From the human T2T-CHM13v2.0 reference genome, Homo sapiens: DNA of 64,000 bases. Shown piece by piece: positions 13,783-15,232 of this stretch. The translations under genes and the position numbers were made by a program. The stretch covers positions 31,200,001 through 31,264,000 of the forward strand of contig CP068257.2 in NCBI GenBank assembly GCA_009914755.4, given 5' to 3'. Under the pieces are notes generated by a model. It saw only the letters and a list, made by a program, of their open reading frames with translations. It did no database searches and was not told where the DNA came from. The first letter of the stretch is position 1, and each line of letters begins with the position of its first letter.

Positions 13783-14100
13783 GCTTGGTCCAGTACTTTT
13801 TGCCTTTTAGGCATGTTTATGAATCTGTGAGATCTATTTTTAGAAGTTAATTACCAAGTCTACTTTTTTTCCAGTTAAATGCCTAGGTCATGGTTATTGT
13901 TGTTCTGTTACTTATGAAGTAAAATAAGCAGAATAAAACCCAAAAAACACAAAATAACCTATTTGTTATTTTGAATCTTTTAAAATATAACATCAACAAT
14001 ACATTTTTCACATTAAAAAATCTATTGATTTGAGAAAACTGTACTTAAACCATGGCCCCAGGGTGAACGAATGGTGAGCGGGAATAAAATAAAATTCAAA
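13783..14100. repeat. Left arm of a large inverted duplication (partner at 14600-15232)
   Basis: ttggtccagtactttttgccttttaggcatgtttatgaatctgtgagatctatttttagaagttaattac ... aataacctatttgttattttgaatcttttaaaatataacatcaacaatacatttttcacattaaaaaatctattgatttgagaaaactgtacttaaaccatggccccagggtgaacgaatggtgagcggg is present as a reverse complement at 14600-15232 (~90% identical). Confidence 0.85.
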
Positions 14101-14599
14101 ACCATGTCCCCTGACTGCACAGCCTCTTTGTTTTTTGTTTTTGTTTTTTTCCAACCTCATCATTACACTCCTTTCACATAGGACTCAGTGCCCTGGCCCC
14201 ATTTTTAGTTAGAGAACGGTGGCTCTTGTATAGATCTGCCATGGGCTTGTACTGGGTAAAACGATGAAATTTGTCTTGGGGGCTTTAGACGTCTCTTTCT
14301 GGATCCCTTTCTCTAAAAGATAATATTTACCACAGCAGGATGCCGCTAATACTGAATCAAAGCAATATGTAGCCAAGCCATGAGCAGCTAATATCCTAAC
14401 CTGAGCCCTGCCTGGAAGTGGCAGCCGTGTTAGCCTCTCTGGTGCTTTATGTTGAATGGGTGCTCGGGGTGAAGGGACTCTGGCAGCCTTCCCAGAAAGG
14501 GAGATGGCAAAAGAGAAAACAAACACCTTCTAGAGGTTTCTGGGGAACTTAGGGAATCCTAGAAAACCTGTGTAAGGTAATGCAAGTACGTTTCTCCTC

Positions 14600-15232
14600 C
14601 CATCTGTTTTAATTGGCATTCCCACTCACCATTCATTTCACCCTGGGGCCATGGTTTAAGTACAGTTTTCTCAAATCAATGGATTTTTTAATGTGAATTT
14701 TTTTTTTTTCTTTTTGAGACGGAGTCTCGCTCTGTCCTCCAGGCTGGAGTGCAGTGGCGCAATCTTGGCTCACTGCAATCTCTGCCTCCCGGGTACATGC
14801 CATTCTCCTGCCTCAGCCTCCCGAGTAGCTTGGATTACAGGTGCCTGCCACCATGCCTGGCTAATTTTTTGTATTTTTAGTAGAGACGAGGTTTCACCGT
14901 GTTAGCCAGGATGGTCTCGATCTCCTGACCTCGTGATCTGCCCGTCTCGGCCTCCCAAAGTGCTGGGATTACAGGCATTAGCCACCACGCCCGGCCGAAA
15001 AATGTATTTTTGATGTTATATTTTAGAAGATTTAAAATAACAAATAGGTTATTTTGTTTTTCGGGGTTTTTTTCTGCTTATTTTACTTTATAAGTAACAA
15101 AACAACAATAACCACAACCTAGGCATTTAACTGGAAAAAAGGTAGACTTTGTAATTAACTTCTAAAAATAGATCTCACAGATTCATAAACAAGCCTAAAA
15201 GGCAAAAAGTACTGAACCAATGTTACTTCAGA
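14600..15232. repeat. Right arm of the inverted duplication (reverse complement of 13783-14100), carrying an Alu insertion
   Basis: cccactcaccattcatttcaccctggggccatggtttaagtacagttttctcaaatcaatggattttttaatgtgaa, then the Alu, then gaaaaatgtatttttgatgttatattttagaagatttaaaataacaaataggttatt ... ggcaaaaagtactgaaccaa. Reverse-complementing gives the left-arm sequence. The left arm is uninterrupted at the Alu position. Confidence 0.85.
14697..14996 (-). mobile_element. Alu SINE (antisense, AluY-like)
   Basis: Poly-T, then gagacggagtctcgctctgtcctccaggctggagtgcagtggcgcaatcttggctcactgcaa ... gccaggatggtctcgatctcctgacctcgtgatctgcccgtctcggcctcccaaagtgctgggattacaggcattagccaccacgcccggcc. Confidence 0.92.

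What the first reader, a model, noticed from the sequence alone, without database searches (positions are those of the whole stretch)
13783..15232. Large inverted duplication (~320-bp arms, ~500-bp spacer) with an AluY-like insertion in one arm
Sequence 13783-14100 recurs as its reverse complement at 14600-15232 at about 90% identity. Examples are cattaaaaaatctattgatttgagaaaactgtacttaaaccatggccccagggtgaa and its RC ttcaccctggggccatggtttaagtacagttttctcaaatcaatggattttttaatg, and aataacctatttgttattttgaatcttttaaaatataacatcaacaatac and its RC. The right arm is interrupted by a young Alu (14697-14996) that is absent from the left arm, so the duplication predates that Alu. The arms are not Alu, L1 or LTR sequence. 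A perfect-orientation palindrome of this size with a short unique spacer is uncommon. Possible explanations are long terminal inverted repeats of a non-autonomous DNA transposon, an inverted segmental micro-duplication, or a hairpin-forming structure. Such palindromes are recombination and fragility hotspots.
Basis: seen in the sequence. Interest (0 to 1): 0.55.

Follow-up and report, generated by a model that had tools for sequence, protein, structure and literature searches.

The report
Local inverted duplication, later hit by Alu
About 310 bp of ordinary, AT-rich primate DNA was copied in reverse orientation roughly 500 bp from its source, most likely while a DNA break was being repaired some 13-30 million years ago, and one copy later received an Alu; it is real but looks like an ordinary structural relic, not a transposon or a fragile palindrome.

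Summary
The inverted repeat is real. The arms are 13785-14085 and 14618-14697 + 15000-15220. They differ by 17 mismatches and two 1-nt indels over about 301 nt (about 94% identity, blastn E = 8e-127). The spacer is about 500-530 bp. A full-length AluY in minus orientation (14698-14996, plus a 3-bp GAA duplication) interrupts the right arm. Removing it restores a gapless arm alignment.

A transposon is not supported. No target-site duplication of any standard length is present, no canonical terminal motif is present, and no protein remnant was found. The arm divergence is too low for any DNA transposon known in anthropoids.

The left arm begins exactly where a MIR SINE breaks off. The MIR appears to resume just after the left arm (P = 0.016 and 0.0005 on two nulls). 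It does not resume after the right arm (P = 0.42). This suggests the left arm is a copy pasted into the MIR from a donor about 500 bp downstream, with about 20 nt of target lost and possible microhomology at one junction. That matches the "repair-mediated proximal duplications" catalogued in primates (Pace et al. 2009).

With a spacer this long, the repeat is not a cruciform or fragility hotspot. Genome-wide copy number and orthologous empty sites could not be checked with these tools. Interest is low.

The parts
13600..13784 (-). MIR SINE fragment in reverse-complement orientation. It stops abruptly at '...CACACAGC', exactly where the left arm starts.
13785..14085 (+). Left arm of the inverted repeat, with a weak homology tail to about 14104. 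Inferred to be the inserted copy (acceptor).
   Evidence: Searches show about 94% identity to the reverse complement of the right arm. One search suggests the MIR resumes just after it.
14086..14135 (-). Junction zone. It holds a 7-nt A-rich patch found neither in the donor nor in MIR (14086-14092). It then continues with 'ATTCAAAACCATGTCCCCTGACTGCACAG', which resembles the next part of the MIR consensus after a gap of about 20 nt. Its first 10 nt or so also resemble the donor, a possible microhomology.
   Evidence: score 61, P = 0.0155 against random window 50-mers and P = 0.0005 against shuffles; a looser test was not significant. The overlap with the donor was read from the alignment.
14127..14150 (+). 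T-rich (TTTGTT)n microsatellite at the left end of the spacer.
   Evidence: (TRF).
14105..14602 (.). Unique spacer of about 500 bp. It has no internal inverted symmetry, no protein-domain remnant and no RNA-family match.
   Evidence: spacer halves score 67 against 66 +/- 12 for shuffles. Pfam found nothing. Rfam found nothing; no other copy in the window.
14618..14697 (-). Right arm, inner segment, with a weak tail back to about 14603. Inferred donor.
14698..14996 (-). Full-length AluY with an A-tail (seen as T12CT5 on the plus strand), inserted into the right arm. GAA at 14997-14999 duplicates GAA at 14695-14697.
   Evidence: AluY fits better than AluSx, with 9 non-CpG and 13 CpG-site differences. 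Metazoa_SRP and Alu-derived miRNA models hit only here; removing it restores a gapless arm alignment.
15000..15220 (-). Right arm, outer segment. Inferred donor.

Best explanation
This is a local, templated inverted duplication and not a mobile element.

In a catarrhine or hominoid ancestor, a break inside an old MIR SINE (at what is now 13784/14093) was repaired by copying about 310 bp from unique DNA about 500 bp downstream. That donor is the present right arm. The copy was pasted in reverse orientation. About 20 nt of the MIR were lost and no target-site duplication was made.

The likely route is as follows. The right-hand broken end (MIR 'ATTCAAAAC', reverse complement GTTTTGAAT) annealed at imperfect microhomology to the donor (GTTTTAAT, 14606-14613). 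It was then extended along the donor to 15220. The new strand was joined to the left broken end without homology.

An AluY later inserted into the donor arm. Since then both copies have drifted neutrally.

What is shown: the repeat, its borders, the Alu order, and the absence of transposon hallmarks. What is inferred: which arm is the copy, the microhomology, the break-repair route, the date, and neutrality.
For: - **Repeat structure.** Two copies lie about 500 bp apart in inverted orientation, at about 94% identity, with sharp outer ends.
- **No TSD.** None was found at 2-11 bp around the whole unit, around either arm alone, or around the spacer. Neither arm has a poly(A) tail at its end.
- **MIR context.** The left arm starts exactly where a significant MIR match stops. 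The 50 nt after the left arm match the next 60 nt of the MIR consensus (P = 0.0155 against window 50-mers, P = 0.0005 against shuffles). The 50 nt after the right arm do not (P = 0.42).
- **Even spread of differences.** Mismatches are spread evenly, with a longest perfect run of 43 nt. This is as expected from one event followed by drift.
- **Similar ages.** Arm-to-arm divergence is about 5.6-6%, which is about 2-3% per copy. The AluY inside one arm shows 3.9% non-CpG divergence. Both events therefore fall in the same broad period. That period is later than the last known DNA-transposon activity in anthropoids, about 37 Myr ago (Pace & Feschotte 2007, cited from memory).
- **Fit to a known class.** Size, distance and junction type fit the repair-mediated proximal duplications of Pace et al. 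2009 (PMC2671141). There, 824 human cases have the donor within 5 kb and a length of up to 619 bp. Junctions carry microhomology of 2-9 nt, deletions or filler, with no poly(A). Of all 1,136 duplicons found in that study, 289 were catarrhine-specific. An opposite-orientation example at about 94% identity is described.
- **No coding or RNA signal.** Arms and spacer give no Pfam or Rfam match.
Against: - Genome-wide copy number could not be measured, so a rare repeat family is not excluded.
- The MIR-resumption signal is short, about 20 of 29 matches. It disappears under a looser joining test (p = 0.37).
- The inferred MIR deletion of about 20 nt slightly exceeds the 1-15 nt range in Pace et al.
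- Between 'GGGAAT' and the junction, 7-8 nt differ from the donor and need a later indel or filler to explain them.
- The Alu looks slightly older than half the arm divergence would predict: 9 non-CpG differences observed against about 4.8 expected (Poisson P of about 0.06). This needs noise, Alu subfamily differences or some arm-to-arm gene conversion.
- No orthologous empty site was seen.
Confidence: 0.52

Rival explanations
1. The structure is the same, but it was made during replication and not during break repair. The nascent strand folded back or switched template (FoSTeS/MMBIR or fold-back priming). It copied the neighbouring about 310 bp from the opposite strand and then returned.
For: The end product is identical: an inverted copy, a spacer, no TSD and possible microhomology. 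Fold-back inverted duplications with a spacer, and short-range template switches, are documented in human and great-ape genomes (titles and abstracts of PMC3907307 and PMC7954356).
Against: Documented short-range switches are mostly tens of bp, and fold-back duplications are kb to Mb with a terminal deletion. The apparent loss of about 20 nt of MIR at the insertion point and a blunt left junction fit end-joining after a break somewhat better. Sequence alone cannot separate the two routes.
Confidence: 0.15
2. It is a non-autonomous cut-and-paste DNA transposon, about 1.1 kb without the Alu, with terminal inverted repeats of about 310 bp that inserted as one unit.
For: Arm-spacer-arm symmetry with sharp outer ends. 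The unit abuts a truncated MIR. Copy number could not be tested.
Against: No TSD of 2 (TA), 3 (TWA), 4 (TTAA), 8 or 9-11 bp is present, even allowing mismatches and termini shifted by +/-8 nt. At about 94% arm identity, a TSD should still be visible. The termini read TTGGTC..., not a canonical CAG, TA-CAGT or TTAA-CCC motif. The MIR does not resume after the right arm. The spacer has no transposase remnant. There is no second copy in 64 kb. Each arm is only about 3% from their common ancestor, about half the divergence of the youngest known anthropoid DNA transposons (from memory: Pace & Feschotte 2007).
Confidence: 0.13
3. The arms are two independent insertions of the same interspersed repeat (a SINE-like element, a solo LTR or a retro-copy) that happen to lie head to head.
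For: Both arms start at the same base, and homology decays in an A-rich patch at the inner ends (AATAAAATAAAA on the left, AATTAAAA on the right). This faintly recalls retroposon tails.
Against: Neither arm has its own TSD or a true poly(A). The arms do not match Alu, MIR or any Rfam family. There is no third copy in 64 kb. Identity of about 94% would require a family as young as AluY, and no known family of that age looks like this (from memory, not tested against Dfam).
Confidence: 0.07
4. It is an older inverted repeat of any origin, kept similar by arm-to-arm gene conversion or by selection. One possible reason for selection is that it is transcribed into a long hairpin RNA.
For: As single-stranded DNA the arms pair end to end despite the Alu and spacer (MFE -379 kcal/mol). 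The arms look slightly younger than the Alu they predate. A fraction of human inverted duplicates is expressed (PMC5398296).
Against: Differences are evenly spread with no conversion tracts. Transitions and transversions are balanced and indels are present, so there is no sign of constraint. No Rfam hit was found. An Alu is tolerated inside one arm. No expression data are available here.
Confidence: 0.08

Closest known systems
Repair-mediated proximal duplications (RDs) of primate genomes (Pace, Sen, Batzer & Feschotte 2009, PMC2671141)
   Same: The copy is a few hundred bp long and was taken from within 5 kb on the same chromosome. It appears to be inserted inside an old interspersed repeat, with no poly(A) and no regular TSD, and with deletion and/or microhomology at the junction. 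Divergence is typical of catarrhine-age events. Either orientation occurs in that class.
   Different: At about 310 bp it lies in the upper tail of the class (mean 162 bp, maximum 619 bp). The donor is unusually close, about 500 bp. The inferred target deletion of about 20 nt exceeds their 1-15 nt range. Membership was not confirmed by an empty site, nor by showing that only two copies exist in the genome. The locus could not be looked up in their Table S1.
Non-autonomous DNA transposons with long terminal inverted repeats (MULE/Ricksha-type, foldback-like elements, IR/DR Tc1 elements)
   Same: The layout is arm - unique middle - inverted arm, about 1.1 kb in total.
   Different: There is no TSD, no canonical termini, no internal direct repeats in the arms, no transposase remnant and no second copy nearby. 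It is too young for known anthropoid DNA transposon activity.
Fold-back inverted duplications with a spacer, and short-range template-switch hairpins (PMC3907307; PMC7954356)
   Same: An inverted copy is separated from its source by a short single-copy spacer, which implies intrastrand or nearby template use.
   Different: Those events are either far larger (kb-Mb, with a terminal deletion) or far smaller (tens of bp).
Fragile palindromes: PATRRs and closely spaced inverted Alu pairs
   Same: AT-rich inverted repeat with arms of a few hundred bp.
   Different: Those have nearly no spacer and near-perfect arms. Here the spacer is 500-800 bp and divergence is about 6%. That removes cruciform potential under normal conditions (PMC10164571). 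Interaction would need long single-stranded DNA.

Membership tests
Cut-and-paste DNA transposon (hAT, Tc1/mariner, piggyBac, PIF/Harbinger, MULE) | Terminal inverted repeats at the element ends | tested here: met
   Arms of 301 nt at about 94% identity. This feature is also produced by any inverted duplication.
Cut-and-paste DNA transposon (hAT, Tc1/mariner, piggyBac, PIF/Harbinger, MULE) | Target-site duplication of the superfamily's length directly outside the TIRs (TA, TWA, TTAA, 8 bp, 9-11 bp) | tested here: not met
   Flanks are ...CACACAGC | TTGGTCC...GAACCAA | TGTTACTT. No direct repeat was found at any symmetric terminus within +/-8 nt, allowing 1-3 mismatches.
Cut-and-paste DNA transposon (hAT, Tc1/mariner, piggyBac, PIF/Harbinger, MULE) | Multiple dispersed copies in the genome | not testable with these tools
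   No second copy exists in the 64-kb window. The public collections here hold essentially no primate DNA. Arm 21-23-mers gave 0 true hits. Alu and MADE1 control patterns also gave 0 hits in the viral set.
Cut-and-paste DNA transposon (hAT, Tc1/mariner, piggyBac, PIF/Harbinger, MULE) | Host sequence continuous across the whole element (empty-site logic) | tested here: not met
   The MIR broken at 13784 does not detectably resume at 15221 (p = 0.24; P = 0.42).
Repair-mediated proximal duplication (Pace et al. 2009) | Donor on the same chromosome within 5 kb, more than 50 bp away; length 50 to about 620 bp | tested here: met
   Copies of about 305-320 bp lie about 500 bp apart.
Repair-mediated proximal duplication (Pace et al. 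2009) | Acceptor interrupts an older interspersed repeat whose consensus coordinates continue on the other side (within +/-30 bp) | tested here: inconclusive
   MIR appears to resume after the left arm with a consensus gap of about 20 nt. P = 0.0155 and 0.0005, but the looser test was not significant.
Repair-mediated proximal duplication (Pace et al. 2009) | No poly(A)/T at the insert end; junctions with microhomology, filler or deletion | tested here: inconclusive
   No poly(A) is present at the arm ends. Candidate features are an 8-10-nt imperfect microhomology at 14092-14103 / 14606-14613, a 7-nt filler-like patch, and a deletion of about 20 nt. These cannot be fixed without the empty site.
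Repair-mediated proximal duplication (Pace et al. 2009) | Inserted sequence present at only one other place in the genome; empty site in an outgroup | not testable with these tools
   No primate genome is available. No gene handle exists to fetch orthologues, since there are no Pfam exons in the window. Window ORFs are not on record.
AluY insertion (the interrupting element) | Full-length dimeric Alu with Y diagnostic bases, an A-tail and flanking duplication | tested here: met
   281 nt align to AluY, a better fit than AluSx. The A-tail is A12GA5. Only a 3-bp GAA duplication is visible, and the nick site TGAA/AAAT is not canonical.
Fragile palindrome (PATRR-like or close inverted Alu pair) | Near-perfect arms with little or no spacer | tested here: not met
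   The spacer is about 500 bp (about 800 bp with the Alu) and arms are about 6% diverged.
Known structured RNA or miRNA hairpin family | Match to an Rfam covariance model | tested here: not met
   Only Alu-derived hits were found between 13500 and 15500, even at E <= 5.

The most novel reading that the evidence does not exclude
The unit is a copy of an unrecognised, TSD-less DNA transposon with terminal inverted repeats of about 310 bp that was still mobile in catarrhine primates. That would be well after the accepted extinction of DNA transposons in the anthropoid lineage. A milder version is that the repeat is a lineage-specific long-hairpin RNA locus born from the duplication.
Probability: 0.03. 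Interest if true: 0.7.

Novelty: new member of a known kind. Interest (0 to 1): 0.15.

Why it matters
It matters only modestly. It is a clean, datable example of how break repair or template switching creates a long inverted repeat in unique primate DNA. An Alu inside one arm gives the relative timing. The undisturbed arm serves as the Alu's built-in empty site.

Such repeats are raw material for hairpin RNAs. They could also mediate occasional inversion of the spacer through recombination between the arms. They only threaten stability when long single-stranded DNA is exposed.

For annotation, it is a caution that arm-spacer-arm symmetry alone does not make a transposon.

Tried and rejected
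- **Other copies in public DNA.** I scanned for arm 21-23-mers in metagenome contigs (two scans, 0 hits), bacterial and archaeal genome contigs (one chance 25-nt match in an Akkermansia MAG, with no wider similarity) and viral contigs (0 hits). Alu and MADE1 control patterns also gave 0 hits in the viral set. These negatives therefore say nothing about copy number in primates.
- **Orthologous loci through a nearby gene.** Pfam was run on 300 of the 317 stop-free ORFs of at least 58 aa outside Alus, covering about 1-60.2 kb. It found only an RPL10 pseudogene fragment. Exact look-ups of two nearby ORFs found nothing on record. A RAP1B peptide check, prompted by a guess from the SNORA70 copy, was negative.
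- **Whole unit inserted into the MIR.** The extension of the MIR alignment into the right flank is no better than chance. This idea was rejected.
- **Larger palindrome including the flanks.** The flanks are not inverted copies of each other. The right flank holds an independent MIR.
- **Spacer as a retro-insertion into a former perfect palindrome.** No TSD lies around the spacer, and the spacer has no hidden symmetry.
- **L1 twin priming.** The T-rich tract sits inside the unit, not at an outer end. This is reasoning only.
- **Junction repeats.** CACAGC (13779/14118) and TGTT (14605/15221) were considered as junction signatures. Both are weak after multiple testing, and the former falls inside the putative MIR resumption.
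- **Literature string search.** A search of paper full texts for arm sequences found nothing.
- **Table S1 of Pace et al.** It could not be filtered by phrase and was not read in full.

Full report
**What is there**

The region is primate DNA. The window carries about 20 Alu copies.

The repeat finder reports four collinear inverted blocks. Together they pair 13785-14085 with 14618-14697 plus 14997-15220. A gapped alignment gives 17 mismatches and two single-base indels over 301 nt, about 94% identity. A weaker homology tail extends to about 14104 on the left and about 14603 on the right. Blastn gives E = 8e-127 for the pair and finds no further copy of arm or spacer anywhere in the 64 kb.

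The right arm is split by a full-length AluY in minus orientation at 14698-14996, with an A12GA5 tail. Its diagnostic bases fit AluY better than AluSx. Removing 14698-14999 restores a gapless alignment of the arms. The left arm is therefore an internal empty site for the Alu. The only duplication made by the Alu insertion is GAA.

Identity is about 94%, not about 90%. The right arm ends at 15220, not 15232.

**What it is not**

*Not a transposon, on the evidence available.*
- The flanks read ...CACACAGC|TTGGTCC...GAACCAA|TGTTACTT.
- No direct repeat of 2, 3, 4, 5, 6, 8, 9 or 10 nt flanks the unit. I allowed mismatches and shifted both termini symmetrically by up to 8 nt.
- At about 94% arm identity, a target-site duplication made at the same time should still be readable.
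- The termini have no canonical superfamily motif.
- The spacer and arms contain no protein-domain remnant.
- No Rfam family matches outside the Alu, even at E <= 5.

*Not two independent retro-insertions.* Neither arm has its own flanking duplication or a poly(A) tail.

*Not part of a larger or hidden palindrome.*
- The flanks are not part of the palindrome, and the right flank simply contains an unrelated MIR.
- The two halves of the spacer are not cryptically inverted copies of each other (score 67 against 66 +/- 12 for shuffles).

**The MIR clue**

The left flank, 13600-13784, is a clear MIR in reverse orientation (score 268 against 95 +/- 15 for shuffles). It stops at consensus '...CACACAGC', exactly at the first base of the left arm. 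I asked where the MIR continues.

| Place tested | Result |
|---|---|
| After the right arm (15221 onward), join test | Extension no better than chance, p = 0.24 |
| After the right arm (15221-15270), restricted test | P = 0.42 |
| After the left arm (14086-14135), restricted test | Score 61; P = 0.0155 against random 50-mers of the window; P = 0.0005 against shuffles |
| After the left arm, looser join test (26 offsets, cheap gaps) | Not significant, p = 0.37 |

In the positive test, the 50 nt after the left arm align to the next 60 nt of the consensus: ATTCAAAACCATGTCCCCTGACTGCACAG against ATTCGAACCCAGGCAGTCTGGCTCCAGAG, about 20 of 29 matches. The random-window null is inflated by real MIRs elsewhere in the window.

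I treat this as suggestive evidence, not proof. It points to the left arm alone being an insertion into the MIR, with about 20 nt of MIR lost. On that reading the right arm is the source.

The last bases of arm homology (AATTCAAAAC, 14092-14103) overlap the first bases of the apparent MIR resumption. The donor carries GTTTTAAT (14606-14613) opposite the MIR-derived GTTTTGAAT. This is what annealing at imperfect microhomology would leave. It is an inference from the alignment. Between GGGAAT and that point, 7-8 nt match neither the donor nor MIR. They could be filler or a later indel.

**Timing**

- The mismatches are evenly spread. The longest perfect run is 43 nt, against an expectation of about 50 for 20 events in 305 nt. 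There is therefore no sign of patchy gene conversion.
- Five of the 17 mismatches are CpG-associated. The other 12 give about 4% pairwise divergence, or about 2% per copy.
- With all sites counted, pairwise divergence is about 5.6-6%.
- At the 2.2e-9 per year rate used by Pace et al., that is about 13 Myr. At slower hominoid rates it is up to about 30 Myr.
- The AluY shows 3.9% non-CpG divergence. This is the same broad period.
- Taken literally, the Alu looks a little older than the duplication it must postdate: 9 differences against about 4.8 expected, Poisson P of about 0.06. I attribute this to noise, subfamily differences from my consensus, or some arm-to-arm conversion. I flag it as unresolved.
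- Either way, each arm is only about 2-3% from their common ancestor. From memory of Pace & Feschotte 2007, that is about half the divergence of the youngest anthropoid DNA transposons, whose activity ended about 37 Myr ago.

**Closest known process**

Pace, Sen, Batzer and Feschotte (PMC2671141) catalogued repair-mediated duplications in the human genome. These are insertions of at least 50 bp found inside older repeats, with a single parental copy elsewhere.
- 824 had the donor within 5 kb. Their mean length was 162 bp and the maximum was 619 bp.
- All inspected proximal cases lacked poly(A).
- Their junctions carried microhomology (2-9 nt), filler (1-68 nt) or deletions (1-15 nt).
- Of all 1,136 duplicons in the study, 289 were catarrhine-specific.
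- An opposite-orientation example at about 94% identity is described.

The present structure fits in size, distance, junction style and age. It lies in the upper size range, has an unusually close donor, and has a slightly larger inferred deletion.

A replication-based template switch or fold-back would give the same product (papers listed). It cannot be separated from break repair by sequence alone.

**Consequences**

As single-stranded DNA the arms pair end to end around the spacer and Alu (MFE -379 kcal/mol). Cruciform extrusion in duplex DNA is a different matter. In the Alu-IR assays reviewed by Ait Saada et al., lengthening the spacer from 12 to 20 bp already reduces IR-induced recombination about 40-fold, and divergence reduces it further. 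Widely spaced, divergent repeats matter only within long single-stranded DNA (PMC10164571).

The "fragility hotspot" reading is therefore not supported. Inverted duplicates as a class are extremely common in the human genome, although most are short (PMC5398296).

**What could not be done**

- No primate genome, Dfam library or multi-species alignment is reachable with these tools.
- Scans of metagenome, prokaryote-genome and viral collections gave nothing real. Alu and MADE1 controls were equally empty in the viral set, so those negatives carry no weight.
- No gene was found in the window to serve as a handle for orthologous loci.
- Nearby ORFs are not on record.
- Copy number and the empty site are the two decisive facts, and both remain untested.

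**Verdict**

The inverted repeat is real and well defined. It is most likely (about 0.5, or about 0.65 including the replication variant) a local templated inverted duplication of catarrhine age, later hit by an AluY. It is probably neutral. It is a new instance of a known kind, and interest is low.

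Noticed in passing
window 10028-10162 (-), within about 9640-10480 (-): A full-length SNORA70 H/ACA snoRNA copy (142 bits; gathering score 40) sits inside frameshifted RPL10-like coding sequence. 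Examples are ...[22 protein letters not shown]... and ...[13 protein letters not shown].... It looks like a retro-copy of a partly spliced RPL10 pre-mRNA that carried its intronic snoRNA along.
   Followed up: partly
window 14695-14697 / 14997-14999: The AluY in the right arm made only a 3-bp duplication (GAA). It was primed at TGAA/AAAT, not at a canonical TTTT/AA L1 endonuclease site, yet it is full length with an A-tail. This is an atypical integration site.
   Followed up: partly
window about 26000-28100: This block has 56% G+C but a CpG observed/expected ratio of only 0.09. It carries long overlapping ORFs on both strands (up to 261 aa) with no Pfam match. Its nature is unknown.
   Followed up: no
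window 13400-13572: This looks like half of a MER5A-type hAT MITE, ending ...AAACTTTGAACACTAGTG. It lies just left of the MIR. It was recognised from memory only.
   Followed up: no
window about 15360-15460 (+): A second, independent MIR fragment (consensus positions about 73-166) lies in the orientation opposite to the one at 13600-13784. It is not part of the inverted duplication.
   Followed up: yes
window 46216-46287: An (AAAAT)n microsatellite follows the tail of the Alu at 45934-46232. It produced repeated 13-nt matches to the A-rich inner end of the left arm.
   Followed up: no
L001 1948-1997 (Akkermansia MAG contig JBGVMR010000028.1): There is a 25-nt exact match to the arm (GAATCTGTGAGATCTATTTTTAG region) in a bacterial MAG. 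Similarity does not extend beyond about 50 nt, so it is a chance hit and not host contamination.
   Followed up: yes
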